A stretch of 64,000 nucleotides of DNA from Mobula hypostoma. Taxonomy: Eukaryota. The position numbers were made by a program, and so were the translations under genes. Positions 6,956 through 64,000 of the stretch are shown in pieces. Where the stretch lies: contig NC_086097.1 in NCBI RefSeq assembly GCF_963921235.1, positions 61,816,001 through 61,880,000 on the forward strand, in the 5' to 3' direction. Numbering within the stretch: the stretch's first letter is position 1; the number at the start of each line of letters is the position of its first letter. Under the pieces are notes generated by a model that worked only from the letters and a program-made list of their open reading frames with translations, made no database searches and was not told the origin of the DNA.

Positions 6956-6959
6956 ATGA

Positions 6960-10330: not shown

Positions 10331-10554
10331 CCCTTCCTACAAGTGATTGGTAGCAGCTGCAAGATGCCAGAAGACAAGTTCACTTAAATAAATGTTGTTG
10401 CTCACAGAAAATCAAAAAGGAGTTTAATTTTGAATTAACTATTCTACCTCTTACAAGAAGCGTATTTATATCATAGCTTTCACATTCATTTTGGAATTTC
10501 CTAAAGCCCTCTATAGCCAAGAAGTAATTTTGAAATGTATTCACTATTACAATA

Positions 10555-12182: not shown

Positions 12183-13943
12183 ATTATGTTACTTATGTGT
12201 AACTCTAAATATTCTAACAAGGAATGCATCTGGTTTGATTTGAAGAAAGGAAAGATTTCAAAGGAAGAATGGAACTTCTTAGTAAACAAATGTTGTACTA
12301 ACTTTAATTCAAACTGCTTTTTATATGCTGTCAATACACAGAGCACCAGAACCATTTCTCTCTCATTTAATAAGCCCTTTAGTTTATGAATAGTTTTTCC
12401 TAAATTCTAATGTACTTCTTTATTTTTCTATAAATACCTGCAAGAAAATGAATCTTAATGTAGCATATGGAAACCTATACATGTACTTTGATCATAAATT
12501 TGCTTTGAACTTTAAACGTTAATATTAATACTGATGCCACATGACGAGTTAAATATTTCCAGTGTATTTTGTTTCAGATTTTCAGAAGTCCATTGTTTTC
12601 AGTAAAGCATATAATTTTGGACTGTCAGAGTCACAACTTGAACCCATGGAGGAATAAATAAATATTTTCTTAACATTTGGAAAATGTGAAATGCAGTATA
12701 AATTCAGCCCTACACGTTTAAATAATCTGAAGGAAGCATGCCACTGTGGAGTGATTCAGAACTCTGTGCTCTCTTTTGAACCTATGAAGTATAGGTTGAA
12801 TGGAATATTTATAATTTTTAAATGAACTGCTTAATGAGATCCTTTCGTGCACAGTCTTTTGTTGCAACATTTAAGATACTTAGTGACAAAATTACCTACT
12901 TCATCAATGTCAATGTGATGCATTAATTTTACAGTAGGAAATTATCAGTAGATAAAGGCTTAATGTGTATTGCTACTAATTCACCTAAAACTCCTGGTTA
13001 AAGATAGCACTCATAATTAATGATACTGACTGTGGTGTCAATTAAAATGGAAATTTTCATTTAGCATTCTTTTTACAGGTTTACTTCTATTCCATTCTGT
13101 TAACATTCACATTTATAACCACTAAGTGAACTGCAAAGGATGAAAGGTAATTATTCACACTCTGGTATTAAGGCCATAGATTATAAAGCCGGGACAAAGT
13201 TTGTATTGTTGATGGCAAAAGAAAACATCAAACAAGACATTTAACCAACCTTTGTCATAAATCCAGTCCAGCTGAGCTGATTTGAGAGTGAGGTTGATAC
13301 ATCTCAGAAAAGGGAATAGAAATTCATAAGATTTAGAAAAGCAAAGTAACAGCAGGGAAGCTGCAAACTACACCATCTTGAGCCTTTTCCAGATTTGGTT
13401 AAAACTGGCTTAAGTTATTTTGTCAACAGTTTTGCTAAATTGTGTGACCAAAGACTTTCTTGAGTTCAGGGTACAGGAAGCTGAGATTGAAAACTGGGAA
13501 AAATGCAAATTCGTGTGTGATTCTATTTAACTCTATCCCATTGACCAGCATCTTGAATTCAAGGGCATTAGGCAGCTAGAATGTACCATACAGGGTAGAG
13601 AAAGGTTGTATATACAGGGCTGGAATGAATTCCAATCCGTACACTCCACCATAGCAGCTGGAATTATGTTGGAGGTTGTATGTTGGTCCAATGACCTTCT
13701 CTCCTGTGTCTGGAATTGCCATGCTCCAACAGTCACTCCAGAATGTACTAAACTGAGTGGCTGGAAATACTTTGTGTCTCACCCATCTACATTACTCTGC
13801 CTAAAGTCAACAATTGTGCTTTGCTCCTGAGAAAACCAAACTAACGTTCCATAGAAAGTCAGATGTCTAAAGGCACAGTAATGGTCTTCAGTTATTTTCT
13901 GAGACATTACACAAAATGCTTACAGCATATTTTTGAAACACGT

Positions 13944-25010: not shown

Positions 25011-26927
25011 GGGCTTAATTAGGAAGGGGAAAAAAGATTATGGGAGAAAACTGGCAGGGAACATAAAAACGGACTGTAAAAGCTTTTATAGATATGTAAA
25101 AAGGAAAAGACTGGTAAAGACAAATGTAGGTCCCCTGCAGACAGAAACAGGTGAATTGATTATGGGGAGCAAGGACATGGCAGACCAATTGAATAGTTAC
25201 TTTGGTTCTGTCTTCACTAAGGAGGACATAAATAATCTTCCAGAAATAGTAAGGGACAGAGGGTCCAGTGGGATGGAGGAACTGAGCGAAATACATGTTA
25301 GTAGGGAAGTGGTGTTAGGTAAATTGAAGGGATTGAAGGCAGATAAATCCCCAGGGCCAGATGGTCTGCATCCTAGAGTGCTTAAAGAAGTAGCCCAAGA
25401 AATAGTGGATGCATTAGTGATAATTTTTCAAAACTCGTTAGATTCTGGACTAGTTCCTGAGGATTGGAGGGTGGCTAATGTAACCCCACTTTTTAAAAAA
25501 GGAGGGAGAGAGAAACCGGGGAATTATAGACCGGTTAGCCTAACGTCGGTGGTGGGGAAACTGCTGGAGTCAGTTAGCAAGGATGTGATAACAGCACATT
25601 TGGAAAGCGGTGAAATGATCGGACAAAGTCAGCATGGATTTGTGAAAGGAAAATCATGTCTGACGAATCTCATAGAATTTTTTGAGGATGTAACTAGTAG
25701 AGTGAATAGGGGAGAACCAGTGAATGTGGTATATTTGGATTTTCAAAAGGCTTTTGACAAGGTCCCACACAGGAGATTAGTGTGGAAACTTAAAGCACAC
25801 GGTATTGGGGGTAAGGTATTGGTGTGGGTGGAGAATTGGTTAGCAGACAGGAAGCAAAGAGTGGGAATAAACGAGACCTTTTCAGAATGGCAGGCGGTGA
25901 CTAGTGGGGTACCGCAAGGCTCAGTGCTGGGACCCCAGTTTTTTACAATATATATTAATGACTTGGATGAGGGAATTAAATGCAGCATCTCCAAGTTTGC
26001 GGATGACACGAAGCTGGGTGGCAGTGTTAGCAGTGAGGAGGATGCTAAGAGGATGCAGGGTTACTTGGATAGGTTGGGTGAGTGGGCAAATTCATGGCAG
26101 ATGCAATTTAATGTGGATAAATGTGAAGTTATCCACTTTGGTGGCAAAAATAGGAAAACAGATTATTATCTGAATGGTGGCCGATTAGGAAAAGGGGAGG
26201 TGAAACGAGACCTGGGTGTCATTATACACCAGTCATTGAAAGTGGGTGTGCAGGTACAGCAGGCGGTGAAAAAGGCGAATGGTATGCTGGCATTTATAGC
26301 GAGAGGATTCGAGTACAGGAGCAGGGAGGTACTACTGCAGTTGTACAAGGCCTTGGTGAGACCACACCTGGAGTATTGTGTGCAGTTTTGGTCCCCTAAT
26401 CTGAGGAAAGACATCTTTGCCATAGAGGGAGTACAAAGAAGGTTCACCAGATTGATTCCTGGGATGGCGGGACTTTCATATGAAGAAAGACTGGATGAAT
26501 TGGGCTTGTTGGAATTTAGAAGATTGAGGGGGGATCTGATTGAAACGTATAAAATCCTAAAGGGATTGGACAGGCTAGATGCAGGAAGATTGTTCCCGAT
26601 GGTGGGGAAGTCCAGAACGAGGGGTCACAGTTTGAGGATAGAGGGGAAGCCTTTTAGGACCGAGATTAGGAAAAACTTCTTCACACAGAGAGTGGTGAAT
26701 CTGTGGAATTCTCTGCCACAGGAAACTGTTGAGGCCAGTTCATTGGCTATATTTAAGAGGGAGTTAGATATGGCCCTTGTGGCTACGGGGGTCAGGGGGT
26801 ATGGAGGGAAGGCTGGGGAGGGGTTCTGAGTTGGATGATCAGCCATGATCATAATAAATGGCGGTGCAGGCTCGAAGGGCCGAATGGCCTACTCCTGCAC
26901 CTATTTTCTATGTTTCTATGTTTCTAT
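25011..26927 (+). mobile_element. Young 5'-truncated CR1 LINE
   Basis: Contains the uninterrupted 557-aa ORF and an (atgtttct)n tail; lacks ORF1 and APE. Confidence 0.95.
25156..26829 (+). CDS. CR1 ORF2 reverse-transcriptase portion (open, no endonuclease domain)
   Basis: [34 protein letters not shown] and KFADDTKL in one open frame. Confidence 0.85.
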   Translation: MIMGSKDMADQLNSYFGSVFTKEDINNLPEIVRDRGSSGMEELSEIHVSREVVLGKLKGLKADKSPGPDGLHPRVLKEVAQEIVDALVIIFQNSLDSGLVPEDWRVANVTPLFKKGGREKPGNYRPVSLTSVVGKLLESVSKDVITAHLESGEMIGQSQHGFVKGKSCLTNLIEFFEDVTSRVNRGEPVNVVYLDFQKAFDKVPHRRLVWKLKAHGIGGKVLVWVENWLADRKQRVGINETFSEWQAVTSGVPQGSVLGPQFFTIYINDLDEGIKCSISKFADDTKLGGSVSSEEDAKRMQGYLDRLGEWANSWQMQFNVDKCEVIHFGGKNRKTDYYLNGGRLGKGEVKRDLGVIIHQSLKVGVQVQQAVKKANGMLAFIARGFEYRSREVLLQLYKALVRPHLEYCVQFWSPNLRKDIFAIEGVQRRFTRLIPGMAGLSYEERLDELGLLEFRRLRGDLIETYKILKGLDRLDAGRLFPMVGKSRTRGHSLRIEGKPFRTEIRKNFFTQRVVNLWNSLPQETVEASSLAIFKRELDMALVATGVRGYGGKAGEGF

Positions 26928-30631: not shown

Positions 30632-33600
30632 CATAAGACCATAAGACCATAAGACAAAGGAGCAGAAGTAGGCCATTTGGCCCATCAAGTCTGCTCCGCC
30701 ATTTTATCATGAGCTGATCCATTTTATCCTATTTAGTCCCACTGCCCCGCCTTCTCACCATAACCTTTGATGCCCTGGCTACTCAGATACCTATCAATCT
30801 CTGCCTTAAAGACACCCAATGACTTGGCCTCCACTGCTGCCCGTGGCAACAAATTCCATAGATTCACCACCCTCTGACTAAAAAAATTTTTTCGCATTTC
30901 TGTTCTGAAAGGGCGCCCTTCAATCCTGAAGTCATGCCCTCTCATACTAGACTCCCCCATCATGGGAAACAACTTTGCCACATCCACTCTGTCCATGCCT
31001 TTTAAATTTCGAAATGTTTCAATGAGGTCTCCCCTCATTCTTCTAAACTCCAAGGAATACAGTCCAAGAGCGGACAAACGTTCCTCATATGTTAACCCTC
31101 TCATTCCCAGAATCATTCTAGTGAATCTTCTCTGTACCCTCTCCAACGTCAGCACATGCTCTCTTAAATAAGGAGACCAAAACTGCCCACAGTACTCCAA
31201 GTGAGGTCTCACCAGCGCCTTATAGAGCCTCAACATCACATCCCTGCTCCTATACTCTATTCCTCTAGAAATGAATGCCAACATTGCATTCGCCTTCTTC
31301 ACTACCGACTCAACCTGGAGGTTAACTTTAAGGGTATCCTGTACGAGGATTCCCAAGTCCCATTGCATCTCAGAACTTTGAATTCTCTCCCCATTTAAAT
31401 AATAGTCTGCCCGTTTTTTTTTCTGCCTAAGTGCATAACCATACACTTTCCAACATTGTACTTCATTTGCCACCTCTCTGCCCATTCTTCCAATCTATCC
31501 AAGTCTCTCTGCAGACTCTCCGTTTCCTCAGCACTGCCGGCCCCTCCACTTATCTTCGTATCGTCAGCAAACTTATCCACAAAGCCCTCTATTCCATAAT
31601 CCAAATCGTTGATGTACAATGTAAGAAGAAGCGGCCCCAACACTGATCCCTGTGGAACAACACTGGTAACCAGCAGCCAACCAGAATAGGATCCCTTTAT
31701 TCCCACTCTCTGTTTCCTGCCAATCAGCCAACGCTCTATCCACGTATGTAACTTTCCTGTAATTCCATGGGCTCTTATCTTGTTAAGCAGCCTCATGTGT
31801 GGCACCTTGTCAAAGGCCTTCTGAAAATCCAAATATACAACATCCACTGCATCTCCCTTGTCTAGCCTACTGGTAATTTCCTCAAAAAATTGTAATAGGT
31901 TTGTCAGGCAGGATTTTCCTTTAAGGAATCCATGCTGAGTTCTGCCTATCTTGTCATATGCCTCCAGGTACTCTGTAACCTCATCCTTGACAATCGACTC
32001 CAACAACTTCCCAACCACCGACGTCAAGTTAACAGGTCTATAATTTCCTTTTTGCTTCCTTGCCCCCTTCTTAAATAGTGGAGTGACATTTGCAATCTTC
32101 CAGTCCTCCGGAACCATGCCAGAATCTATCGACTTTTGAAAGATCATCGCTAATGCCTCCACAATCTCCACAGCTACTTCCTTCAGAACACGAGGGTGCA
32201 TTCCATCTGGTCCAGGAGATTTATCGCCCTTTAGCCTATTCAGCTTCCTGAGTACTTTCTCTGTCGTAATTGTGACTGCGCACGCTTCTCTTCCCTGCCA
32301 CCCTTGAGTGTCCGGTATCCTGCTGTCTTCCTCAGTGAAGACTGATGCAAAATAGTTGTTCAGTTCCTCTGCCATCTCCTCATCTCCCATTACAATTTCT
32401 CCAGTATCATTTTCTATCGGTCCTATATCTACTCTCACCTGTCTTTTACTCTTTATATACTTGAAAAAGCTTTTAGTATCCTCTTCAATATTATTTGCTA
32501 GTTTCCTTTCATAGTTAGTCTTTTCTCTCTTAATGATCTTCTTGGTTTCCTTTTGTAAGGTTTTAAAGACTTCCCAATCCTCTGTCTTCCCACTAATTTT
32601 TGCTTCCTTGTATGCCCTCTCCTTTGCTTTAACTTTGGCTTTGACTTCTCTTGTCAACCACTGTTGCATCCTTTTTCCACTCGAAAATTTCTTCTTTTTT
32701 GGAATATACCTGTCTTGCACATTCCTCATTTCTCGCATAAACTCCAGCCACTGCTGCTCTGCCGTCTTTCCCGCCAGTGTCTCTTTCCAGTCAACTTTGG
32801 CCAGTTCCTCTCTCATGCCACTTTAGTTTCCTTTACTCCACTGAAACACCGACACATCAGATTTCGGCTTCTTTTTTTCTAATTTCACAGTGAACTCAGT
32901 CATGTTATGATCACTGCCTCCTAAGGGTTCCTTCACCTCAATCTCTCCAATAACCTCCGGTTCATTACACAATACCCAATTCAGTACAGCCGATCCTCTA
33001 GTGGGCTCAACAACAAGCTGTTCTAAAAAGCCATCTCGCAGACATTCTACAAATTCCCTCTCTTGAGATCCAGTGCCGACCTGATTTTTCCAATCTACTC
33101 GCATGTTAAAATCCCCCACAATTATCATAACACTGCCCTTCTGACAAGCCTTTTCTATTTCCAGTTGTAATTTGTAGTCCACATCCCTGCAGCTGTTTGG
33201 AGGCCTATAAATAACTGCCATCAGGATCCTTTTACCCCTGCTATTCATTAGCTCAACCCATAAAGATTCTGGACCTTCCGATCCTATATCACCTCTTTCT
33301 AATGATTTAATATCATTTCTTACCAATAAAGCCACGCCTCCCCCTCTGCCTACCTTCCTATCCTTCCGATACACCGTGTATCCTTGGACATTCAGCTCCC
33401 AGAGACATGCATCCTTTAGCCAGGTCTCAGTGATGGCCACAATATCATACCTGCCAATCTGTAGCTGTACAACAAGATCATCCACCTTATTTCTTATGCT
33501 GCGTGCATTTAAGTACAACACCTTAAGACCAGTATTTGATACTTTTTGCTTTGATTTCACTGCAACTTTATTGCACTGCAGCTCATCCCAATGGCCACAC

Positions 33601-37780: not shown

Positions 37781-37908
37781 TTATAAAGTAATTTTGAAGA
37801 ACTGTAAAGTCTTTCTCCTACAGAGTGCTTATACGTGGCCTATCACCTTGGGCTGGAGGTTGATCCTTGGCAGGATTATCATTGTTCTCCAGCACAATAC
37901 GGTAAAAT

Positions 37909-39399
37909 TCTGGATTAGTTCCTGAGGATTGGAGGGTGGCTAATGTAACCCCGCTTTTTTACAAAAGGAGCGAGAGAGAAACCGGGGAATTATAGACCAG
38001 TTAGCCTGACATTGGTGGTGGGAAAAATGCTAGAGTCAATTATCAAAGACGTGATAACAGCACATTTGGAAAGCGGTGAAATCATCGGACAAAGTCAGCA
38101 TGGATTTGTGAAAGGAAAATCATATCTGACGAATCTTACAGAATTTTTGAGGATGTAACTAGTAGAGTGGATAGGGGAGAACCAGTGGATGTGGTATATT
38201 TGGATTTTCAAAAGGCTTTTGACAAGGTCCCACACAGAGATTAGTGTGCAAACTTAAAGCATACGGTATTGGGGGTATGGTATTGATGTGGATAGAGAAT
38301 TGGTTGGCAGACAGGAAGCAAAAAGTGGGAATAAACGGGACCTTTTAAGAATGGCAGGCAGTGACTAGTGGGGTACCGCAAGGCTCAGTGCTGGGACCCC
38401 AGTTGTTTACAATATATACTTATGACTTAGACGAGGGAATTAAATACAGCATCTCCAAGTTTGCGGATGACACGAAGCTGGGCGGCAGTGTTAGCTGTGA
38501 GGAGGATGCTAAGAGGATGCAGGGTGACTTGGATAGGTTAGGTGAGTGGGCAAATTCATGGCAGATGCAATTTAATGTGGATAAATGTGAAGTTATCCAC
38601 TTTGGTGGCAAAAATAGGAAAACAGATTATTATCTGAATGGTGGCCGATTAGGAAAAGGGGAGGTGCAACGAGACCTGGGTGTCATTATACACCAGTCAT
38701 TGAAAGTGGGCATGCAGGTACAGCAGGCGGTGAAAAAGGCGAACGGTATGCTGGCATTTATAGCGAGAGGATTCGAGTACAGGAGCAGGGAGGTACTACT
38801 GCAGTTGTACAAGGCCTTGGTGAGACCACACCTGGAGTATTGTGTGCAGTTCTGGTCCCCTAATCTGAGGAGGAAACACATCCTTGCCATAGATGGAGTA
38901 CAAAGAAGGTTCACCAGATTGATTTCTGGAATGGCAGGACTTTCATATGATGAAAGACTGGATCGACTAGGCTTATACTTGTTGGAATTCAGAAGATTGA
39001 GGGGGATCTTATTGAAACGTATAAAATTCTAAAGGGAATGGACAGGCTAGATGCAGAAAGATTGTTCCCGACATTGGGGAAGTCCAGAACGAGGGGTCAC
39101 AGTTTGAGGATAAAGGGGAAGCCTTTTAGGACCGAAATGAGGAAAAACTTCTTCACACAGAGAGTGGTGAATCTGTGGAATTCTCTGCCACAGGAAACAG
39201 TTGAGGCCAGTTCACTGGCTATATTTAAGAGGAAGTTAGATATGGCCCTTGTGGCTAAAGGGATCAGTGGGTATGGAGAGAAGACAGGTACAGGTTTCTG
39301 AGTTGGATGATCAGCCATGATCATACTGAATGACGGTGCAGGCTCGAGGGGCCAAAAGGCCTACTCTTGCACCTATTTTCTATGTTTCTATGTTTCTAT
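37909..39399 (+). mobile_element. Young 5'-truncated CR1 (same subfamily as 25011-26927)
   Basis: RT motifs, (atgtttct)n tail, TSD GTAAAAT at 37902-37908 and 39400-39406. Confidence 0.95.
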
Positions 39400-41692: not shown

Positions 41693-44264
41693 TGAACACG
41701 TCCCTGCTGTCCATTCATATCCTAGCTGCTGCTCAAGCCCATCACTTCATTTTTCTCTTTTATCTATACTTTCTCAATTTGCTTTCATTCCTCCTGACAA
41801 CCTACGGCCAGTAGTCAATCTATTTTCCATTTTTCTCCTTAGGTCCACATTCCTCCCAAATCGATTACAACCCATCGAATCCAATTGACATTTATACTCC
41901 TACTATTCTTTATGAACTCAATTACTCTTGGATAAATCTAACAGCATCCCTTTGTATGGTATTTACCAATGGATTCAGTGAGCAACACACTGTTGTTGCT
42001 TTCAAAACAGCGATTATTTATTGTTTCATCCTGTGCTTCCATTAAATACTGCTCACATGGGAATTCATTGAATTTGCTTAAGGAAAGGGCCTATATCTGT
42101 CTTTCCCTCTATCATCTGCCGGTGTAGGCAGTCGTATAAAAGATACGACTCGTCTCACTATATCACAGTCTGTGTTATTGCTGTTTCTGTGCAGCCCTCT
42201 CCTCCCTTGGTAATCTCACTTTGTGACACTCTCACAATTACGGGCTTTGTTTTCTATCATTCATCCAAAAACCACAAAGAATTCTTGATGGAACATCTTC
42301 TTTGCATTCTTCTCCAGTTATACCTCAAGTAACTTCCTACTCGCAGCAGTTTCAACCTTCAGTTCAGGTTATTATATTCTTAGCTGCCTTTCTATTGTCC
42401 CTTCATTTAAATTACTCACTACGTACTTGCCATCCTCTTTAACTTTTCCACGAAATGTTGCCTTGCTGCAGCCATTGTGTCAGTCGCAGAGAAGGCCACC
42501 ACTAATCAGTTATGTGCATTTGACATCCACCACAGCCCTCTTCACCCGTATCGTTCCATCACCACCTGTGTCTGTTCCTGAAAAAAAAGCTTCTCCCAAA
42601 TCCTCAATACTTCACAAAACCCAGCTGTCATATTTTCCGCTCTTCATTCATATATCACGGAAAGTATTCTGCCTGGAGGTTGATGACTAATGGTATTCCA
42701 TAGGGATCTGTTCTGGGGACCCTGCAATTTGTGACTTTTAAAAATGATTCGGATGAGGAACTGGAAGGGTGTGTTAGTACGTTTGCAAATGGCATGTAGA
42801 AGGTTGTCACAAGGGAACAGAGAGGGCAGTGGTCTGCGCTATCTACAATATGTTCTGCAGGTAACTATCCAGATACCTTTCATGGTATCTCACAAACCAG
42901 TAATCATATTTTGATAATGGAAATATTTTTAATGTGTTTTATGCAAGACAGAGATTCAGCATTTATGAGCCTATACAAGGCTGGTACTACAGAGAGGGAA
43001 GGAAAAATGTAAGAGTGTATCCACATCTGCCATCTTATCTGGAAACATTTAAACTTTAGATCAATACAGGTGTCCTGTAAAATGATCAACATTCATATCT
43101 CTGCCTCATCTTGTACCCCTGTGACCTGACGTGTGCAACCTCACTGTGTGTGAAAGTGGATGTACTTCATTGACAGTGAAGTGCTTTGGAATAGCCTGAA
43201 AAACCGGCAAAGTGCTTTGGAAAGGTCTTGTATAAATGCAACTTATTTCTTTATAATAAACTGTGGCAGCAAGGAAGAAAGGCTTCAAAAATTATGAATT
43301 GCAAATGATGGGGAACCAAACCTTGACTGAATAACTGAATAAGTTATAGAAGCATCTGAGCAACAAATATTGCTTGGAGTGTCTTTTCCATATCACAGTC
43401 ACCGAAGGGAGTGAGATTTGAACTGAAACTTGCAAGGTCTGTTTACAACACAGCTGATCTCAAACCTACAGAGAATAGTCCGGGAAAAGCATGCCCACAT
43501 AGTGCTAAATAATTCTCCACTGAGGAGCACATTTATTGAAAATATATATAGAGAGAAAACACTTTGATTGAACAAGCAATTTCAGCAAATACCATTAATC
43601 AGGAATAAAAGGTGAAGTGAAGGAAATGTCTTTTAAAATCACTCAAATAAGTGAGAAGAATATTTTCTCAAAAGGTAAGTACAAGAAATAAATAAGTGAG
43701 TGTTTATGCTTCTTAACAGATAATGCAAATCTATGAAAGACAAGCTAAAATAAATTTCTACAATACAAAAATAAATGACTGTGAAATGCTGATGGAGCAA
43801 AGTTCAACCAGTGTCAAAGGACATAGGTAAATGGTAGATGACCATTCCAATTCTTCATTCAAAATTTTAAGACAAGACTAAAGGATGGGCAATATTATGT
43901 GAAGAGCTGAACTGTTTTTTTTTCCAATTCTGTCCTATTGCATGTATGAGGCCTTGTCCTTCACTATAAATGATATCCATTATTTTATTCTCATTGTTGT
44001 GTCTGTACAACTACCTAAATAAAGGCATGCACATGGAGGAGAAATTAACTTGTATAGTCATTTTGCAGAGAAAGCTACAAATCAATGTGCATAGGTAAGC
44101 TATCAGTCAAGAATTAGTGCTAAGGGGAGTCATTGCACTAAAAGAAGTAGATCCATACATTACACTTCCTCCCCTTTTGATTAGTGTAACATAAAACTGT
44201 ATATTTAAGAAAGCATTAAATTTCCTTTTAACAGACCATGTTCAAGTAAACATGCTTTCACAGT

Positions 44265-44358
44265 AACACACACAAACTGCTGGAGGAACTTAGCAGGCCA
44301 GACAGCATATATCGAAAAAAGTACAGTCGACTCTATTTTTTTCCATAGATGCTGTCCA
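44265..44358. repeat. Fold-back remnant of a Penelope terminal repeat
   Basis: acacacaaactgctggaggaacttagcaggccagacagcat... followed by the inverted ..atagatgctgtc around gtcgac. Confidence 0.65.
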
Positions 44359-44459
44359 TAGCTTTAATAGACTTCTTGAAGGATTGGACAAAACCTTTCA
44401 GGTAACCTATTTATTGCTGTATGATGAAGAGCTGATTGTGAACTTGAGGAAGGGTAAGA

Positions 44460-45105
44460 CCAAGGGACACATACACCAATCCTCATAGGGAGATCAGAAG
44501 TGGAGCGAGAATTTCAAGTTCCTGGGTGTCAAGATCTTTGAGGATCTAACTTGGTCCCAACATATTGATACAGTTATAAAGAAGGTAAGACAGCGGCTAT
44601 ACTTCATTAGGAATCTGAAGAGATTTGGTATGTCAACAAGTACACTCAAAAACTTCTCTAGAAGTATTGTGGAGAGCATTCTAACAGGCTGCATCACTGT
44701 CTAGTACAGGTGGAGGGGGGAGCTACTGCACAGGACTGGAAGAAGCTGCAGAGGGTTATAAATTTAGTTGGCTCCATCTTGGGTATTAGCCTACAAAGTA
44801 CCCCGGACATCTTCAAGGAGCGGTGTCTCAGGAAAAGCAGCATCCATTATTAAAGACATCCAGCACCCAGGGCATGCCCTTTTCTCACTGTTACCATCAG
44901 GTAGGAGGTACAGGAGCCTGAAGGCACACACTCAGCAAATCAGGAACAGCTTTTTTCCCTCTGCTATCAGATTCTTAAATGGACATTGAATCCTCGGACA
45001 CTACCTCATTTTCTTAATATGTATTATTTCTGTTTTTTGCATGATTTTTAATCTATTCAATATACATATACTGCAATTTATTTATTTATTATTATTATTT
45101 TATTT
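44460..45105 (+). mobile_element. Rex1/Babar 3' fragment
   Basis: FKFLGV..KKVRQRLYF..; KAASIIKDIQHPGHALFSLLPSGRRYRSL. Confidence 0.85.
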
Positions 45106-45854
45106 TGGATTTTTCTGCTTCTGATTCGTAAATAGTTCCAACTCTACCGACATATATTGTGGTCTGTTGTTACTCACAATTTGTTTGGATAAGCCATTTC
45201 TGGAGAAGAGAGTCCTCAGAGTAGGAACAGTCTTTTCTGATGTGGTTGACTTCATTGGTATGATGTCAGACCACTTTGAATGAATATCCACAGCACTCGG
45301 ACACATGGAGTTCATGAATGGCCCAGCAAAGTCTATACGCACTCTTTGTCATGGTGAAGGGAGCTACTCCCACAGGTGCAAAGGTGCTCATTGGGGTGCA
45401 TTTTGAACAATCTGACATCCTGAACAGTTTTTCGTCATGTCTTCAATCTGTCTGTCTATTCGTGGCCAACACACATAGCTCAGGGTGAGATTCTTCATCT
45501 TGACTGTACTGAGGTGTCCTTCCTGCAGACTCTCTAACACTCTGGTGTACAGTTTAGAGGGAACCACAACACGAGATCCACACATCAGCGTTCTTTAACA
45601 TACAGACAATTGGTCTCATCTCACTGAGAACTCTGGAGACATTGGATTACCATGAGCTGGGCATCCTTGCATGGTGATGTCTCTACTTTTGACAATGTTG
45701 GGTTATTCCTTGTTTTTCTTTGTATTTCATTATTTGTTACAGACAGCTAGTGCACCAGTGCTGTGTGGAACACTTCTGCTGGGTCACAGAATGAAGACTG
45801 TATTTCTTCAGATGTCAATACTGAAAGCTATGACAAGCCATCAGTTTTAGAAAT

Positions 45855-46124
45855 TAAAAGTCTGTCACGAGTCTTGTGGCCCATCAGGCCGGTGCTTATG
45901 CCAGTTTCAGTGGCGTGAAGCGACTGAGAGTAAAAGACTACCCCCGGATAGGATGTCGGTTTATCGTGAGGTTAACATTCTCCACACATTCTCAGCTGGG
46001 TAGACTGGAGCATTGCGTGATTAAGTGCCTTGCTCAAGGACACACATGCTGCCTCGGCCGAGGCTCGAACCCACGACCTTCAGATCGTTAGTCCAATGCC
46101 CTAACCACTTGGCTACGTGCCACA
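45855..46124 (-). mobile_element. tRNA-derived SINE with CORE-like body
   Basis: Pol III A box TAGCCAAGTGG and B box GGTTCGAGCC, then gtgtccttgagcaaggcacttaa; interrupts Gypsy pol. Confidence 0.85.
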
Positions 46125-47175
46125 CAGCTGTGCTGTTTGATACCTGTGAATTCATGACATAAGAGTGGGATCCTAGGAAAAGTGCCCACACTTGTAACGG
46201 AGTAGCAGATATCACTGGAATTCACTTGCTGAGACTGAAGATGGACACAAGGGGCTGATGAACTGTCACTAGAGTAAAATTTTGTCCCTGGAGATAGTGG
46301 TGGAACTTCTTTACTCCCCATACTCAACTAAGGGCCTCTCAGTCGATCTATGTGTAGTTGTGTTCTGTGCTAGTCAGTGATCTTGAAGCAAACACAATCG
46401 GGTGTTCAGATCCATCTTTTGTAGTGTGTGCCAAAATGTCTCCAATGCCATAAGAGGATCCATCTTGCGCCACTCTAATGGGTTTAGATGGTCATATTGG
46501 GTGAGCAGTTCATCTGACATTATTAGTCTCTTTGTTTCCTTGATTGCTCTTTCACATCTTTCTGACCACTCCCAATTTGCTCCTGTCTGCAACAGTGCAT
46601 TCAATGGGGGCAGCACTGTAGTACTGTTTGGGAGAAACCAACAATAAAAGCTTACAAGGCCCAAGTATGACCTGAGTTGTGTCACATTTTCTGTTTTGGG
46701 TGCCTGCAGCACTGCTTCAGTTTTCTCCTGTGGCTTATGTAAGACATGCTTGCCAATGACACATCCACAATATGAAATCTCATTCTTGAAAAACTCACAT
46801 TTCTTTCTCTTTGCATGCAAACCATACTCACTCAGCCTGGCAAGCACTTTACCAAGATTCGGGAGGTACTCCTCATCATTATTGCCAGTCACTATGGTGT
46901 CATCAAGGTGACATTGTGTTCCTGGGGCATCGGAGCACTTGGTCCATTGGTCTTTATCAAATTTCTGGTGCAGAGGCAATGCCAAAGACACAAAAATGTC
47001 TTCTATTTTCAGCAGATGATACTGCACAGTACACAGCACAGGATTGATGCTCACTTTGAAGTCCCCCACATTTCCAAACAGCTCCAGCCTTCCCTTTTTT
47101 TGACCATCAGGACAATGGGCATGGCCCAATTGTTCCACTCATCCTTGGAGAGAATGCCAGATGCCTCCATGTTCT

Positions 47176-49178
47176 TCTTCTTCTTTTTCGTTTTATGGCA
47201 GATGGCAACCAGTTTTCAGTGCGTTACTGCCACCTGCTAGACTTGTAGTGTTCCAACCAAATATATCCTGGAGTTCTCTACTTTAGACAATCTAGTTCAG
47301 CCTGCAGTTCTCTATTAGCATCACTCTGTAGTTGCAAATCCTCGTGAATGCTTAATACACTCATTAGATAATGCCGCAAACTGCTATTCTTTCCTAATTA
47401 TGTCACATGTTTTTGCATAGTTGCATTACCTCAATTACATTGATTTCATCTACATCACTTGCAAGACTAAAATCGTCTTGTTAAAGAATAGTAATTATCG
47501 CGCGTTATACTTTTAAAATTGCCGTTTTTCCAAGTCTATCTGCTTTTTCATGCTTTCCTTTTCTTGGATCATAGCCTGCAGTTGTTTACTGAGACCTCAG
47601 AGTTCTTCTTCATTTGCTTCCATGTTTTCATTTTATAATCTGAATGTAGATAATTTACTTTGCAACAAATTCCTTTTCCTTTTGTAACCTTGTAATAATT
47701 TCCTCCATTTTCCAATCTCTTTCCAATTCACCGTTGTTCTTGTCAGGTACTTCTTTGTTGTTGGAGTTCTGCACATTTACCCTGAGCTTCAACCATAAAA
47801 TCTGAGGATTTTCCTTAAGTTCTGAAACACTTCTTAAATTCTTGACCATTTGCGATAAATATACTGCCATTAAGATTCCACCTCCCCTGCCTGTGAACTG
47901 TTGGATCCTCCATTCAACGTTTCTTTTATTTCTTCCCACCTAATTCCTTTAATACCAAGATACTTTTCTGCAGACTTGATGATAATTTTGATTTTCTCAG
48001 TTCTTTTGCTTGCTGCGCTGAACAATTAATTGCATCCATCATAAAAAGCATGAACTCCTTTCTACTCATTAATAGTGTATCCTTATTTTTCATATTACAA
48101 CTCTCACAATTCACCAGTTTATTATTCTCTGTATTTGTTTGCTTGACAGCCTTTTTTTCATCAAATTCTTTCACTGCCTCTGCATAACTGGTTCCTTGAG
48201 TTACTTTTACATATTGTATCTCAGCCGTCTTCTTGCTAGAAATGCACCCTCGATAAGCTGCGCTGTGTTCCTTGCCATAATTGCAGCATTTCAGCCTAGC
48301 TCCCGCTTCACATTTCCCATATTCATGTTCTCCAGCGCATCTACCACATCTTTGTTTTCCTCTGCAGACTGCCGCAATGTGCCTGAATTTCTGACATTTA
48401 TAGCATCTTAAAGGCGGTGGTATATATATTCTAATTGCATAACACATATTCCCTCAGTAAAGGTTAGTCAGCAATCTCTCCTCACCAAAGTTAATCATTA
48501 CCAATAAACTATTATACTTCTTCCCGTTTCTTGTAACTTTCAAATGTTTGGCCTCAATAAGTTTTGCTCCTTTTATGTTCTGTTTAATCTCATCCATAGT
48601 AAATTTTGTTGGTATCCCCGAAATAACTCCTCTAGTCCACTTTCTATTGTTGGGTATTGAGCATTGTACTTCTTTGCTGTTTATTTTACATAATCTTATC
48701 ACTTTACCTTGCTGAGAACTATCCCGACAAATCACTAATAGCGATCCATTTCGTAAAATCTTTGCTCCTTTAATTTCGCCTATAATTTTGTTGAGCATCT
48801 TTGTCAAATGAATGGGGTTCCAATCACCAAATGACGCTCCGTCTGCACTTAGTTTTATAATTGCTTCAATTTCATCTTCTTTCCATTGCTTTGCTGACCT
48901 GCTTTGATCATCCGCTGACTCCTCAGAGGTTGATATCCCATAGCTCTGCTTTCTTTTCTTCCTCTTTCCATTCTGTTCCTCTTTCCCGCCGACCTCCATC
49001 TCTAGTTCACTTCCACTCTCACCAAAAACTTCCTTCAACGGCTTGGCTCTTTCCTTGATGTTCTCTCTCTCCTCCATTTTCCAGTCATAACTCGACTCTC
49101 TCTTTCCACAACCACTCCAACCACAGCAACTCCTCCACAACTCGTCTCACCACTCTCCTTTCTCACAACTCAGCACTC
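47176..49178 (-). mobile_element. Non-autonomous Nimb/I-group LINE (ORF1 with CCHC knuckles; ORF2 almost absent)
   Basis: ORF1 RGVISG..YIPPPLRCYKCQKFRHIAAVC..CGRCAGEH..; TAATG stop/start overlap at 47868-47872; APE start NGQEFKK; 3' end ggtggcagtaacgcac..(gaa)n; 13-bp TSD GCCTCCATGTTCT at 47163-47175 and 49179-49191. Confidence 0.85.
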
Positions 49179-50271
49179 GCCTCCATGTTCTGAAGTTCAG
49201 AATCCACTTTAGGACATAGCGAATAAGGCTCTTGACACCTTTCATGGAATCTTGGAGTTACTGCCTCATCTGGTTCAATTCTGGTCTTCATGACTTTGAG
49301 TTTACCAATCCCCTTCTTAAACACCTTCTCATTAGCATTAATCAGCTATGATAATCTCTGGCTAGTGCTACCATTTGGGCTGCAGTTGCCTGTTAATGAC
49401 GCATTGGGAGCTTTGATTGAGTGTCAGTCTAGTTTTTCTCAACCATTCACATCCAGAAAGTGCTGCCCCTCCACTTTTCATCACATAAAGCTCTAACTGC
49501 TGTTCTTTGCCTCTGTACATTACATTCACTTTCAGTTTGCCTTTGGGAGAAACTTCTTCTCCTGTGTAGTTCTTTAGCACCACCGAGGTCTTTTCTAATG
49601 GTAGCTTGGAAAACATTCTGTCGTAGTCAGCCTCTGAAATTATAGACAAAGCGGACCCTGTAACCAGCTCCATTTTCAGTTTTATACCAGACACATCTAT
49701 TGTGATCCAGATGATTTTGCAATCTGCTTCAGTAATGCTATGCATTTCTAGGGATGACAGCTCATCTTTGTCAGATTCTGTTTTGTCTGATTCAGTTTCA
49801 CTTTCAGTCACTTTATGCACATGTTTACTTTTGTGTTTGAAACTTTCCACTGGGTGTGTTTTTTCTCTTTGGTTGTCTGACTTGCAGACTCTCTCTATGT
49901 GACCTTATCTGTGACACTTTCTGTAAACTTTTATTTTGGACCAACAGTCATTTGCATTATGGGAGGATTTTCCACATCAACAACATTTTTGGCTTTTTTG
50001 GACCATTCGGGGACAGTTTTTGTGTTTCACATTCTAAACTCTCTTTCTGTAATTCTGATGCATCCTTTGCTGCTATCTCTATTGATATTGCAATGGTAAA
50101 TGCCCATTCTAAGGTTAGGTCTCATTCTGACAGTAGCCTCTTTTGAGTGTTTGACCATGCATGCCACTTACAAGCCTGTCCCTTAATGCATCAGAAAGCC
50201 CATCTCCAAAGTCACAGTTTTGGGAAAGTTTGTGCAGTTCTGCAATTTATTTTTAAATGCTTTCATCCTTT

Positions 50272-50740
50272 GAAACATAGGAACACAGAACATAGAAACA
50301 TAGAAAGCCTACAGCACAATACAGGCCCTTTGGCCCACAGAACTGTGCTGAACATGTCCTTATCTGAGAAATTACCTAGGGTTACACATAGCCCTCTATT
50401 TTTCTGAGCTCCATATATCTGTCCAGGAGTCTCTTAAAATACCCTATTGTATCTGCCTCTACTGCCGTCGCCGGCAGCCCATTCCACGCACTCACCACTT
50501 TCTGTGTAAAAAACTTACCCCTGATATTTCCTCTGTACCTGCTTCCAAGCACCTTAAAACTGTGCTCTCTCATGCTCGCCATTTCAGCCCTGGGAAAAAG
50601 CCTTTGACTATCCACACAATTAATGCCTCTCACCATCTTGTACACCACTATCAGGTCAGGTCACCTCTCCTCCTCTGTCACTCTAAGGGAAAAAGGCTGA
50701 GTTCACTCAACCTATTCTCATAAGGCATGATCCCCAGTTC
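50272..50740 (-). mobile_element. CR1 3' fragment inside Gypsy gag
   Basis: DSQRLFPRAE..FFTQKVV; (atagaaac)n tail. Confidence 0.9.
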
Positions 50741-51399
50741 AGCCTCCATTAAACTAAGAAGTGTGGAGACTTTCTTTTCCTCATCTGCATCATTAGCATT
50801 ACAATACAGTTCAGCCCTCTTGATATATGAATCCCAGTCCTCATTAGCACTATCAAATTTGTCAACTTTCCTGGTTAAGGCCAATGTCGCGTTTTCACTT
50901 TAGCTTTGCTAGTTGTGCATCTCTCACTTTTTACTGTGAACTGTCACTCTTGCATCCCTGTGCTACCATCCGTGACTGCCTTCTCCATACTGATTCACTC
51001 TTTTCTCTCACTGTCTCCTTCCCTTCTTCCGAGTTCTGCCCTCGCATAACTGTCGGTGTTGATGATATTCACTGACATTCAGGTTCGTAATCATCGCCAG
51101 TTTGCTGTGCCTGTACAACTACTTATCAAATAAATAAAGGCACACACTCAGAAGTGAAGTAAACTTGTATATTCACTTTGCAGAGAGAGCAACAGATCAA
51201 TGTGCATGGATAAGTTATCAGTCAATAACTAAGTGCTAAGTGGAGTCATTGCACTAAAAGAAATAGATCTGTACACTACACTCATTTCAATGAATATAAC
51301 TTGATTCAAAACATACTTCTGTAATTAGGAACCTACTGTTGTATTTCAGTTGCCATGGGTCTCCTGTAATCCACAGAACTATACACCATCTTCTGATTG

Positions 51400-51750
51400 A
51401 CCATCACCCAGGGCATGCCCTTTTCTCACTGTTACCATCAGGTAGGAGGTATAGAAGCCTGAAGGCACACACTCAGCAATTCAGGAACAGCTTCTTTCTC
51501 TCTACCATCCGATTCCTAAATGGACATTGAAGCTTTGGACACAACCTCGCTTTTTTTAATATACAGTATTTCTGTTTATGCACATTTAAAAAAATCTATT
51601 CAATATATGTAATTGATTTACTTGTTTATTTATTATCATGTTTTATTTTATTTATTTTTTTTCTCTCTCTGTGCTAGATTATGTATTGCATTGAACTGCT
51701 GCTACTAAGTTAACAAATTTCACATCACGTGCCACTGATTCTGATTCTGA
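51400..51750 (+). mobile_element. Rex1/Babar 3' end
   Basis: HPGHALFSLLPSGRRYRSL; (ttctga)n tail; close to 44860-45100. Confidence 0.85.
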
Positions 51751-55017: not shown

Positions 55018-55189
55018 AAACAACAGGAATTCTGCAGATGCTGGAAATTCAAGCAACACACATCAAAGTTGCTGGTGAACGCAGCAGGCCAAGCAGTCCT
55101 GACGAAGGGTCTCGGCCTGAAACGTCGACCACGCCTCTTCCTATAGATGCTGCTTGGCCTGCTGCGTTCACCAGCAACTTTGATGTGTG
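55018..55189. mobile_element. Palindromic Penelope-derived mini-element
   Basis: Perfect 42-bp inverted arms (55055-55096 and 55150-55191), 13-bp TSD TTTCCTTGGATGT (55005-55017 and 55190-55202), inserted in a V-SINE-like relic. Confidence 0.88.
55095..55130 (+). ncRNA. Minimal type I hammerhead ribozyme motif
   Basis: GTC-CTGACGA-AGG(GTCTCGG)CCT-GAAAC-GTC^GAC: CUGANGA and GAAA cores, stem II, GUC cleavage triplet, 3-bp stem I. Confidence 0.75.
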
Positions 55190-55744
55190 TTTCCTTGGAT
55201 GTGCCTGTTTCCACCCACATTACAAAGAACTGCTGCTTGACAAGTTAGTCATTGACTGTAAGTATCACCGAGAGTAAGCAGTTGACTAAAGAATTAGGTA
55301 ATAAATAGGAAGTTACAGGAAATGAATGGAAACGTGGGATTGATGGGATTTGTGATACAATTGCCTCTAACTGCTCAGGTTTAAACAACAAAATAAATCT
55401 TACTAAATGATTCAGCACAATGAAATACATTAAAAAGTAGTTTACAACAAGCGGGTTCATAGTAGAAAATAGCACAACTTAATGATCTGAATAGTCTTCT
55501 TCAATGTCACAAGAAAGAAAAAGAAGCAAATCTTGGATCCTCCAGCAATTTATTCCTGGCAACTTGTTTTCCCAAAGAGCATTTGGCCCATGTTCTTTGA
55601 TCCTGTGCAGATCAGCTGGCAAGAGTATTAACAGGCATTTTTTTTTCATTCCCTGCTTCTGTCTGTGGCTTCCACCTGCGTTCATTCATCATCCTGGTAC
55701 CTAAGAAAAGAAACATAACATGCTTTAACAGCTAATGCCCAATG

Positions 55745-60588: not shown

Positions 60589-63500
60589 CAGTGAAACCCC
60601 GTTATAATGTGATTGTTTGGGTCCATAAAATGTGAACACAAAAAAAGCAGGTCGTGCTAAATCAGGGTTGTTGTTACTGTAGAAATTAAAACACAAATTA
60701 ATTTTTTGTGAAGCTTTTTAATACACAAAACAAATAAAAACATTCAAGAATATTAGCAATCATCATTTACAGTTTATTTCTTTAAAAAGTGATCTAGTGT
60801 TCCTTGCTTAAATGTAGCATGTCACTGGCTGCGAGCGAAATCTAGAATGCTTCTGAGTTGGAGGTTTTTTTATGTGGTCGACCTCCTGGGTCTCCAGCCA
60901 ACGGAGGCTAGCCTCGAGGTGTTCAATGGCTTCAGACACTTTTGGGGGTGGGGGTGGAAACTCTTCATTATCATTTTCCTGTGGCTCGAGAACCGGTACA
61001 CTTGCGTCCAGCAGGTGCACAGATGTTGGGCATTCGTCGTTGGCAGCACTGGAGTAGCTCTTCTTTGTTCCATTGAGACAGCTTCTCTGTCTCATGCACA
61101 TCTTCCTCTATGAAGCCACACAAATCTGGCTCGTCATCATCATCTACCGTGGTGGATTGGCGTGATGAAACGGCTGGCCCCAGACTCTTCTCCCAGCATT
61201 TCTCTACACATGACAAGCTGACTGATGCCCAGGCCTTCCCACCTAAGTGGCAAACTTCCTTCACATTCAGGCTTTCCAGATAGGCTTCAAGTGTTGTTGA
61301 GTAGTCTACAATTCCATGAATTAATTCCCACCTGTAATTCTGCTTGAACACGGAGATGATCCCCTGATCTAGGGGCTGGATCTTGGATGTAGTGTTCTTG
61401 GGGAGGTAAGAAGCTCGGATATTTCCATCACGGCTTACTAGGTTGGCAGTTGGTGGATGAGTGGGACAGTTGTCAAGCAAAAGAAGAGCTTTGGGTTCTA
61501 GCTTTTGCTTATGCAAATAAGCGCAGAGGGCTGGGAAAAAAGTTTTGTGAAACTAATCCTCAAAGATGATACTTGTCATCCAAGCGCTGCTGCTGTGCGT
61601 GTACACAAACGGTAACAACTTCATGTTGACATGGTGGAAACAGCGGAGCGAGCAAGATTTGCCAATCATGAATGGTTTTAACTTAAGTGTTCCAACTTGT
61701 TTACACAAATCAACAATATCACGCGATATTTGCGTTGTTTGAACCCCTCACATCTGTGGGCATCATCTTTGACCACAAGACCACAAGACAAAGAAGCTGA
61801 AGTCGGCCATTCGGCCCATCGAGTCTGCTCCGCCATTTTATCAGGAGCTGATCCATTCTCTCATTTAGTCCCACTCCCCCGCCTTCTCACCATAACCTTC
61901 GATGCCCTGGCTACTCAGATACCTATCAATCTCAACCTTAAATACACCCAATGACTTGGCCTCCACTGCTGCCCGTGGCAACAAATTCCATAGATTCACC
62001 ACCTTCTGACTAAAAAAATTTCTTCGCATTTCTGTTCTGAAAGGGCGCCCTTCAATCCTTAAGTCATGCCCCCTCGTACTAGACTCCCCCATCATGGGAA
62101 ACAACTTTGCCACATCCACTCTGTCCATGCCTTTCAACATTCAAAATGTTTCTATGAGGTCTCCCCTCATTCTTCTAAACTCCAAGGAGTACAGTCCAAG
62201 AGTGGACAAATGTTCCTCATATGTTAACCCTCTCTTTCCTGGAATCATTCTAGTGAATCTTCTCTGTACCCTCTCCAATGTCAGCACATCCTTTCTTAAA
62301 TAGGGAGACCAAAGCTGCCCACAGTACTCCAAGTGAGGTCTCACCAGCACCTTATAGAGCCTCAACATCACTTCCCTGCTCCTATACTCTATTCCTCTAG
62401 AAATGAATGGCAACATTGCATTCGCCTTCTTCACTACCGACTCAACCTGGAGGTTAACTTTAAGGGAATCCTGTACGAGGACTCCCAAGTCCCGTTACAT
62501 CTCAGAACTTTGAATTCTTTCCCCATTTAAATAATAGTCTGCCCGTTTATTTTTTCTGCCAAAGTGCATAACCATACACTTTCCAACATTATACATCATT
62601 TGCCACTTCTCTGCCCATTCTTCCAATCTATCCAAGTCTTTCTTGCAGACTCTCCATTTCCTCAGCACTACCGGCCCCTCCACCTATCTTTGTATCGTCA
62701 GCAAACTTAGCCACAAAGCTGTCTATTCCATCATCTAAATCGTTGATGTACAATGTAAAAAGAAGCGGCCCCAACACAGACCCCTGTGGAACACCACTGG
62801 TAACCGGCAGCCAACCAGAATAGGATCCCTTTATTCCCACTCTGTTTCCTGCCAATCAGCCAACGCTCTATCCACGTATGTAACTTTCCCGTAATTCCAT
62901 GGGCTCTTATCTTGTTAAGTAGCCTCATGTGTGGCACCTTGTCAAAGGCCATCTGAAAATCAAAATACACAAAATCTACTGCATTTCCCTTGTCTAGCCT
63001 ACTGGTAATTTCCTCAAAAAATTGTAATAGGTTTGTCAGGCAGGATTTTCCTTTAAGGAATCCATGCTGAGTTCTGCCTATCTTGTCATATGCCTCCAGG
63101 TACTCTGTAACCTCATCCTTGACAATCGACTCCAACAACTTCCCAACCACCGATGTCAAGCTAACAGGTCCATAATTTCCTTTTTGCTTCCTTGACCCCT
63201 TCTTAAATAGCGGAGTGACATTTGCAATCTTCCAGTCCTCCGGAACCATGCCAGGATCTATCGACTTTTGAAAGATCATCGCTAATGCCTCCGCAATCTC
63301 CACAGCTACTTCCTCCAGAACACGAGGGTGCATTCCATCTGGTCCAGGAGATTTATCTACCTTTAGACTATTCAGCTTACAGAGTACTTTCTCTGTCGTA
63401 ATTGTGACTGCGCACACTTCTCTTCCCTGCCACCCTTGAGTGTCCGATATACTGCTGATGTCTTCCTCAGTGAAGACTGATGCAAAGTACTCTTTCAGTT

Positions 63501-64000
63501 CCTCTGTCATCTTCTTATCTCCAATTACAATTTCTCCAGCATCATTTTCTATCAGTCCTATATCTACTCTCACCTGTCTTTATATACTTGAAAAAGCTTT
63601 TAGTATCCTCTTTGATATTATTTGCTAGCTTCCTTTCATAGTTAAGCTTTTCCCTCTTAATGACCTTCTTGGTTTCCTTTTGTAAGGTTTTAAAAACTTC
63701 CCAATCCTCTGTCTTCCCAGTAATTTTTGCTTCCTTGTATGCCCAATCCTTTCCTTTAACTTTGGCTTTGACTTCTCTTGTCAACCACGGTTGCATCCTT
63801 TTTCCACTCGAAAATTTCTTCTTTTGTGGAATATACCTGTCTTGCACCTTCCTCATTTCTCGCATAAACTCCAGCTACTGCTGCTCTGCCGTCTTTCCCA
63901 CCAGCGTCCCTTTCCAGTCAACTTTGGCCAGTTCCTCTCTCACTTTGCTAGCCAGTTTACGGTCTGGGATCATCTTGTAGCAGAGGCCTGTTTGTCATAG
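60589..64000 (-). mobile_element. pogo/Tigger-family DNA transposon (runs off the window; interrupted by CR1)
   Basis: TA plus a TIR-like cagtgaaaccccgttataa at 60587; DDE_1 motifs LLLLDNCPTHP and LPKNTTSKIQPLDQGII; TGLCYKMIPDR at 63948-64000 continues into 61700-61771. Confidence 0.9.
61772..63942 (-). mobile_element. 5'-truncated CR1 (subfamily of 30632-34623)
   Basis: RT motifs, (ggtcttgt)n tail, TSD CTTTG at 61767-61771 and 63943-63947. Confidence 0.95.

What the first reader, a model, noticed from the sequence alone, without database searches (positions are those of the whole stretch)
47163..49191. ORF1-only Nimb/I-group LINE bounded by a 13-bp TSD
Seen: a 2.0-kb insertion splits Gypsy pol (PKVDSELQNME|ASGILSK) with a perfect TSD. 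It has a 5' UTR, a nearly intact gag-like ORF1 (one TGA at 48454, a frameshift near the end), a TAATG stop-start overlap, only ~30 codons of ORF2 endonuclease, and a Nimb-like 3' end with a (GAA)n tail. Inference: a non-autonomous LINE that keeps ORF1 and the cis-acting ends and borrows RT in trans, analogous to HAL1 for L1.
Basis: partly seen in the sequence, partly recalled or inferred. Interest (0 to 1): 0.7.

Follow-up and report, generated by a model that had tools for sequence, protein, structure and literature searches.

The report
ORF1-only Nimb-type LINE family copy
This is one worn copy of a many-copy, 2-kb jumping element that kept its RNA-packaging gene but lost its copying enzyme, so it must borrow that enzyme; such elements are known from other LINE groups, but I found no report of one from this group.

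Summary
The insertion is real: 2,003 bp on the minus strand between perfect 13-bp duplications, inside a decayed Gypsy pol. Gypsy copies without it exist. ORF1 is a fish I-group/Nimb-type ORF1 (up to 54% identical to full-length homologs; two RRMs, three zinc knuckles). The 3' end matches a full-length relative at 79%.

The shortened structure is a family trait, not local damage. In contigs from four organisms the whole 2 kb is covered evenly, at depths suggesting hundreds of copies, and contigs cross the internal junctions. The ORF1 frameshift and several lost conserved residues are private to this copy.

Not shown: independent target sites of other copies, dN/dS, the helper element, Nimb membership by RT tree. 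One multi-copy derivative lacks 498 nt of ORF1.

Verdict: an ORF1-present non-autonomous LINE, working like HAL1, HeT-A and Ag-Sponge but of separate, I-group origin; none was found in my paper searches (Repbase and Dfam not searchable). The scan noted ORF1-only retroposons before in other genomes (fungi among them), not this family.

The parts
49179..49191 (.). Target-site duplication, copy at the element's 5' side (13 bp)
   Evidence: borders confirmed by depth drop and empty-site joints
47163..47175 (.). Target-site duplication, copy at the element's 3' side (13 bp)
47176..49178 (-). Element body, 2,003 bp: ORF1-present non-autonomous LINE
49078..49178 (-). 5' UTR, 101 nt, G-rich (G 0.45 over 49060-49178)
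   Evidence: ORF1 start inferred from the first in-frame ATG and a gap-free contig over 48868-49071
47870..49077 (-). ORF1, about 402 codons; two RRMs, three CCHC knuckles, helical C-terminus; broken here by TGA at 48456-48454 and a frameshift near 48013
   Evidence: fold from homolog P0002
48244..48405 (-). Three zinc knuckles of ORF1; third knuckle has lost a cysteine in this copy only
   Evidence: row 48278
47868..47872 (-). TAATG: ORF1 stop overlapping an ATG at the ORF2 start
   Evidence: native or deletion-made is open
47787..47870 (-). ORF2 endonuclease stub (profile positions 9-34 recognisable), with internal deletions; end approximate
47255..47786 (-). Middle stretch, about 530 nt, shared by the family; non-coding; A-rich like LINE coding strand; probably eroded ORF2, not shown
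47176..47254 (-). Conserved 3' terminus, 79% identical to full-length relative L001
47198..47237 (-). 3' hairpin, shared with three full-length relatives; likely RT recognition signal (inferred)
   Evidence: fold z-score alone not significant (-0.38)
47172..47183 (-). (GAA)4 tail, last 4 nt overlapping the TSD
   Evidence: six full-length loci end the same way
49192..50899 (-). Host Gypsy-type element, upstream part (gag-like and protease-like pieces, decayed; outer limit approximate)
   Evidence: domain names from recall, no Pfam hit for 49368-49904
45100..47162 (-). Host Gypsy-type element, downstream part (RT and integrase pieces, decayed)
   Evidence: RVT_1 E 2.5e-06, rve E 1.7e-04

Best explanation
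One decayed copy of a multi-copy non-autonomous LINE family derived from an I-group (Nimb-like) element. SHOWN: the ancestor lost nearly all of ORF2, and the short form, not the full-length one, is what was amplified, in at least four organisms. SHOWN: this copy entered a Gypsy pol with a 13-bp duplication and then decayed. INFERRED: a master copy is transcribed from its 5' end and translates ORF1p, an RRM/zinc-knuckle protein that coats the RNA. INFERRED: an ORF2 protein (endonuclease, RT, RNase H) from an autonomous Nimb-like LINE binds the conserved 3' hairpin and (GAA)n tail, nicks the target, primes with help of the 4-nt AGAA match, and copies the 2-kb RNA, usually to its 5' end. INFERRED: ORF1 was kept working in master copies because making its own ORF1p helps the RNA compete for the helper's ORF2p.
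For: Even cover of 47205-49123 in 4 of 4 runs laid, with drops at both ends (table 2); middle/ORF1 depth ratios 0.78, 0.93, 0.50, 1.21. At the 12 listed positions in the middle stretch, summed depth is 11,445-50,135 in X4 and 1,625-12,281 in X1, against 35-57 and 7.5-27 for the 8 single contigs listed per run (tables 3, 8). Bridging contigs: X9 record 28 (47475-47829, depth 37, 11 differences), X10 record 11 (47762-47979, depth 32, 8 differences, 0 gaps), X4 record 17 (47215-47474). Only 1-2% of what was laid in X1 and X4 runs on unlike the stretch. Three empty-site joints (table 5c). The ORF1 frameshift is absent from all depth in X9 and X10 and from most at 48013 in X1 and X4 (table 4). Of 11 listed single-base differences in ORF1, 9 change the residue; in 6 of 9 the other copies carry the commonest homolog residue, in 0 of 9 this copy does. 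ORF1 has 63 homologs, best full-length 54%; relatives L001, L002, L005 carry EN, RT and RNase H. The 3' hairpin is kept in 4 of 4 aligned ends, with a pair changed on both sides. Zebrafish Nimb-2_DR makes 12-13-bp TSDs (PMC4245944, passages).
Against: No contig spans the whole element and no other copy's own TSD was seen (24 loose ends shown, 1519 not; the tail region was skipped as repeat). Summed contig depth is not a copy number. It is unknown whether organisms A-D include the window's species (best word share 0.41). The status of the TGA in other copies is not shown (40 rows shown, 437 not). A contig of depth 458 in X4 skips 498 nt of ORF1 (48353-48852), so a derivative without most of ORF1 also multiplied. 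No dN/dS could be computed. No helper with a full ORF2 was seen; the 1519 hidden loose ends could hold it. The middle stretch gave no robust ORF2 signal. In X9 and X10 depth falls over the 5' 200-300 nt.
Confidence: 0.65

Rival explanations
1. Same non-autonomous family, but ORF1 is a passenger: the element moves like an internally deleted, SINE-like LINE that needs only its two ends, and ORF1 has simply not yet eroded.
For: A multi-copy derivative lacks 498 nt of ORF1 (table 5, depth 458 against about 50 for single contigs). The copy's ORF1 has a long branch, 1.04 against a median of 0.46, though that includes private damage and a frameshifted tail. No dN/dS.
Against: ORF2 is cut by 3 kb and the rest is beyond recognition, with deletions shared by the family inside an 84-nt stub (X10 record 11 has 0 gaps there), while ORF1 aligns end to end with fish homologs and other copies keep conserved residues.
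Confidence: 0.27
2. The 2-kb unit spread at the DNA level (segmental duplication, or as cargo of the Gypsy element), not by retrotransposition.
For: The surrounding Gypsy is itself many-copy (table 2); independent TSDs were not seen.
Against: Depth drops about 5- to 10-fold at both borders in X1 (at the 5' border also in X4 and X9), Gypsy contigs cross the site without the insert, and the unit has a LINE tail and a TSD of the length Nimb makes.
Confidence: 0.04
3. A single full-length LINE inserted here and lost ORF2 afterwards.
For: This copy has decayed neutrally since insertion (9 of 11 changes non-synonymous).
Against: The same junctions and middle stretch occur in high-depth contigs of four organisms, and in single contigs 10-13% diverged from this copy.
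Confidence: 0.02

Closest known systems
HAL1 (half-L1) of mammals (PMC5753468 passages; PMC5786205 section 23)
   Same: Non-autonomous LINE derivative that encodes only ORF1p and keeps LINE ends.
   Different: HAL1 derives from the L1 clade with a coiled-coil/RRM/CTD ORF1. This element has a two-RRM, three-CCHC ORF1, a hairpin and (GAA)n tail, and its full-length relatives carry RNase H. Separate origin.
HeT-A (Jockey clade) and Ag-Sponge (CR1 clade) (PMC5786205 section 23; PMC3414825 passages)
   Same: ORF1-present bipartite non-autonomous LINEs; Jockey-lineage ORF1s are the same structural type I (PMC4120745 passages).
   Different: Other clades and insect hosts. HeT-A is telomeric (recalled); this family appears dispersed.
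Nimb-2_DR, zebrafish, Nimb clade of the I group (PMC4245944 passages)
   Same: ORF1/ORF2 layout in the parent type; TSD peak 12-13 bp; many full-length inserts.
   Different: Autonomous. No Nimb-2_DR sequence was available for direct comparison.
Full-length relatives L001, L002, L005 (unnamed LINEs in metagenome assemblies)
   Same: ORF1 (L001: 54% protein, 64% DNA), start of ORF2, 3' hairpin and GAA tail (L001: 79% over 89 nt).
   Different: They carry a 1,240-1,260-residue ORF2 (frameshifted in L001) and a short T-rich 3' UTR (T 0.51-0.72) that this element lacks.
ORF-absent bipartite LINEs and SIDEs (RTE, Ingi, Vingi, R2)
   Same: Made by internal deletion, moved in trans through the 3' end.
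   Different: They encode no protein; this family retains ORF1.

Membership tests
ORF1-present non-autonomous LINE (class of HAL1, HeT-A, Ag-Sponge) | Keeps ORF1, lacks RT | tested here: met
   63 ORF1 homologs; no ORF2-profile hit inside the element and no Pfam family for ORF1 or the stub frame
ORF1-present non-autonomous LINE | Short form amplified as a multi-copy family | tested here: met
   tables 2, 3, 8; four organisms; contigs only
ORF1-present non-autonomous LINE | Marks of target-primed insertion (TSD, 3' simple-repeat tail) | tested here: met
   this copy only:
ORF1-present non-autonomous LINE | Independent TSDs at other copies | not testable with these tools
   no genome held; loose-end table cut
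ORF1-present non-autonomous LINE | ORF1 under purifying selection in master lineages | tested here: inconclusive
   6 of 9 against 0 of 9 and a private frameshift favour it; a multi-copy 498-nt ORF1 deletion weighs against; no dN/dS
ORF1-present non-autonomous LINE | Autonomous partner sharing the 3' end in the same genome | not testable with these tools
   3' end shared with elements of other hosts; no genome to search
HAL1 proper | ORF1 of L1 type (coiled coil, one RRM, CTD; PF02994), L1 descent | tested here: not met
   no Pfam match; homolog folds as tandem RRMs plus CCHC knuckles
I group (type I ORF1; EN-RT-RNase H ORF2) | RRM(s) directly before CCHC knuckles in ORF1 | tested here: met
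   (model of homolog P0002); definition from PMC4120745 passages. Shared with Jockey, R1, Tad1 and some L2, so not diagnostic alone
I group | Parent ORF2 has APE endonuclease, RT and RNase H | tested here: met
   in 3 of 3 full-length relatives scanned; that RNase H marks the I group is recalled
Nimb clade | RT groups with named Nimb elements | not testable with these tools
   element has no RT; no named Nimb sequence available
Nimb clade | TSD of 10-15 bp, peak 12-13 | tested here: met
   13 bp against PMC4245944; one copy, not diagnostic
Nimb clade | 3' hairpin with (GAA)n tail | tested here: inconclusive
   shared with 6 of 82 loci, the six full-length ones closest in ORF1; that it typifies Nimb is recalled, not read

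The most novel reading that the evidence does not exclude
A fourth independent origin of ORF1-only LINEs, the first from the I group, that has outlived or outgrown its parent in a group of cartilaginous fishes: ORF1 is held under selection over several species while ORF2 was worn down stepwise during amplification, and the family is moved by a more distant Nimb-like LINE that recognises the same 3' hairpin, perhaps supplying ORF1p in return.
Probability: 0.25. Interest if true: 0.72.

Novelty: new variant of a known kind. Interest (0 to 1): 0.5.

Why it matters
ORF1-present non-autonomous LINEs are listed for only three clades (L1, Jockey, CR1; PMC5786205 section 23). An I-group family shows the strategy arising again with a 3'-hairpin type of LINE. 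A family with hundreds of copies of two ages in several species, plus an ORF1-deleted derivative, lets one test directly whether ORF1p made in cis pays for a parasite of a LINE. A working Nimb-2_DR cell assay exists (PMC4245944), so trans-mobilisation can be tested.

Tried and rejected
Whole-genome copy count: no genome is held; contigs of public runs were used instead. Second copy in the window: none. Middle stretch as collinear ORF2 shards: profile of 66 ORF2s scored 24.0 against shuffles 22.2 +/- 2.5; DNA chains against four loci were at shuffle level; a profile of 6 close ORF2s was reached by 1 of 60 shuffles at one penalty and 11 of 60 at another; not accepted. One frame of it found 0 proteins among 1.84 billion (the other two frames were not searched). 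Rfam: 0 matches. Closer ORF1 proteins: none above 68% in short pieces or 56% in longer ones, so the family is not in that collection as far as searched. TSDs of relatives L001-L006: none convincing. ORF1-only elements among 82 loci: none with the hairpin-tail pattern near ORF1. The 3' fold alone is not better than shuffles. ORF1 tree: placement unresolved (32 rows of 380-450 aa). Repeats at 43994-45106 and 51102-51649 as Gypsy LTRs: not resolved. Host from the Atlas: uninformative. Of 19 runs that hold part of the stretch, 4 were laid; the skin-metagenome rows were not and are not used. Paper searches for an I-group or Nimb ORF1-only family found none. Bao and Jurka 2010 is not held. No supplements were read; Repbase and Dfam could hold such a family unseen.

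Full report
OBSERVATION. The 13-bp repeat GCCTCCATGTTCT stands at 47163-47175 and 49179-49191 and encloses 2,003 bp that read on the minus strand. One other exact 14-mer recurs in the 6 kb around it, so the repeat alone proves little. The borders are fixed independently by public contigs: depth falls in the two bins that hold them (X1: 2,013 against 14,149 at the 3' end, 1,302 against 9,934 at the 5' end), and three contigs join 47130 or 47151 to 49179-49183 with no insert.

ANATOMY. A 101-nt G-rich leader precedes an ATG at 49077. ORF1 runs to a TAA at 47872-47870, with a TGA at 48456-48454 and a frameshift near 48013. It has 63 homologs among 4,494 candidates, the named close ones from bony fishes, best full-length hit 54%. 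A model of homolog P0002 (mean pLDDT 76.9) matches tandem-RRM proteins, and the profile's cysteine-rich part weakly matches retroviral nucleocapsid knuckles (E 0.01). This is the type I ORF1 of PMC4120745 (passages). Behind the TAATG lie about 84 nt of endonuclease start, broken by a deletion of about 25 nt and smaller indels. The alignment allows the ATG to be either native or formed by that deletion. The six loci, of 82 fetched, that carry this end are full-length elements; the three scanned encode endonuclease, RT and RNase H.

THE MIDDLE STRETCH. It has 11-13 stops in each frame and the base make-up of LINE coding strand (A 0.41, C 0.13; ORF1 0.39, 0.13). Only 8 of 1,216 tiles elsewhere in the window look so, and the relatives' 3' UTRs are T-rich instead. 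That suggests eroded ORF2, but three alignment tests stayed at or near shuffle level, and protein and RNA searches found nothing. Its origin is probable, not shown.

IS THE SHORT FORM A FAMILY? No genome is held, so I laid contigs of 4 of the 19 runs that hold part of the stretch, one from each of organisms A-D. All 30 bins are covered in all four. Depth over the middle stretch is 0.78, 0.93, 0.50 and 1.21 of that over ORF1; if most copies had a full ORF2, the middle stretch would be nearly bare. At 12 listed middle positions summed depth is 11,445-50,135 in X4 and 1,625-12,281 in X1, against 35-57 and 7.5-27 for single listed contigs. The tool warns that this is no copy number; I read it only as 'hundreds'. 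In the two shallow runs, contigs of depth 24-41 lie 3.0-4.9% from this copy, while single contigs in X1 and X4 lie 10-13% away, so copies of at least two ages exist. X9 record 28 crosses the stub/middle junction with 43 nt on the short side, X10 record 11 crosses the ORF1/ORF2 boundary without a gap, and X4 record 17 crosses the middle/terminus junction with 37 nt on the short side. Limits: no contig spans the element, the tables are cut (40 of 477 substitutions, 15 of 96 joints, 24 of 1,543 loose ends shown), no second TSD was seen, and the window's species may not be among A-D (best word share 0.41).

IS ORF1 KEPT ON PURPOSE? The frameshift is private to this copy (table 4). Of 11 listed single-base differences in ORF1, 9 are non-synonymous, as neutral decay predicts; in 6 of the 9 the other copies carry the commonest homolog residue and in none does this copy (one of the 11 is polymorphic among copies, and position 47990 behind the frameshift was left out). 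The ORF2 stub, in contrast, carries deletions shared by the family. Against this, a contig of depth 458 in X4 skips 498 nt of ORF1, so a derivative without most of ORF1 multiplied too, and the TGA's status in other copies is not visible. I put selection on ORF1 at about 0.7 given the family.

MECHANISM. Shown: loss of ORF2 before amplification, insertion with a 13-bp duplication, later decay. Inferred from general LINE biology: target-primed reverse transcription by a helper ORF2p that binds the 3' hairpin and GAA tail. The hairpin is kept in 4 of 4 aligned ends with one stem pair changed on both sides in two of them, though its energy alone is ordinary. The last four tail bases equal the first four of the TSD, which fits annealing at priming. 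Nimb-2_DR makes 12-13-bp TSDs and 11 of 30 inserts were full-length (PMC4245944, abstract and passages). Even depth up to the 5' end in X1 and X4 fits mostly full-length copies of a short RNA. The helper was not found.

COMPARISON. Kojima 2018 (PMC5786205, passages and whole section 23) lists HeT-A, HAL1 and Ag-Sponge as ORF1-present non-autonomous LINEs, from Jockey, L1 and CR1. HAL1s arose several times (PMC5753468, passages). This element works like them but is not HAL1: its ORF1 is not of L1 type. Its parent is an I-group LINE; Nimb is the best label (fish hosts, PMC3787270 and PMC4758252 passages; TSD length) but the RT test cannot be run. Nimb LINEs are known to move SINEs in trans in bivalves, by 3'-end homology (PMC11481361, passages). 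Nine paper searches showed no ORF1-only I-group family. Repbase and Dfam were not searchable and no supplements were read, so it may be catalogued there.

EARLIER NOTES. No look-alike stretch is on record. Three notes describe ORF1-only retroposons in other genomes. Two notes on this genome call the host a cartilaginous fish or ray; I did not test that.

VERDICT. A real, decayed member of a multi-copy ORF1-only LINE family of I-group origin: a new variant of a known kind. Interest 0.5.

Noticed in passing
window 47701-47717 and 49070-49086: The sequence around the ORF1 start codon recurs in the middle stretch (17 nt at 94%, 14 exact). Chance or a template-switch trace.
   Followed up: no
window 47655-47870 (-): The ATG of the TAATG opens a 71-codon frame. 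It depends on a 2-nt gap at 47830 that most depth in X1, X4 and X10 shares. Function, if any, unknown.
   Followed up: partly
window 48353-48852: A contig of depth 458 in run X4 skips 498 nt of ORF1: a likely multi-copy, still shorter derivative. Another in X1 joins 47326 to 48077.
   Followed up: no
window 50279-50742: A second insertion, a LINE 3' fragment 81% like 4790-5246, interrupts the upstream part of the same Gypsy element.
   Followed up: no
window 43994-45106 and 51102-51649: Two direct-repeat pieces, 81% and 84% identical, flank the Gypsy region; LTRs or a dispersed repeat, unresolved.
   Followed up: partly
window 30637-32815 / 61771-63942 and 25442-26927 / 37907-39399: Two pairs of RT-bearing LINE copies, 94% and 93% identical, each pair in opposite orientation.
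   Followed up: no
window 1500-1559 and 55055-55191: Imperfect palindromes (83% over 60 nt, 80% over 140 nt).
   Followed up: no
L001-L006, L081, P0016: Animal LINEs sit in metagenome assemblies, in a bacterial symbiont assembly (L081) and in a protein labelled Cetobacterium (P0016): probably host DNA contamination.
   Followed up: no
L001 2418-2437: ORF2 of the closest full-length relative is split by a frameshift between endonuclease and RT.
   Followed up: no
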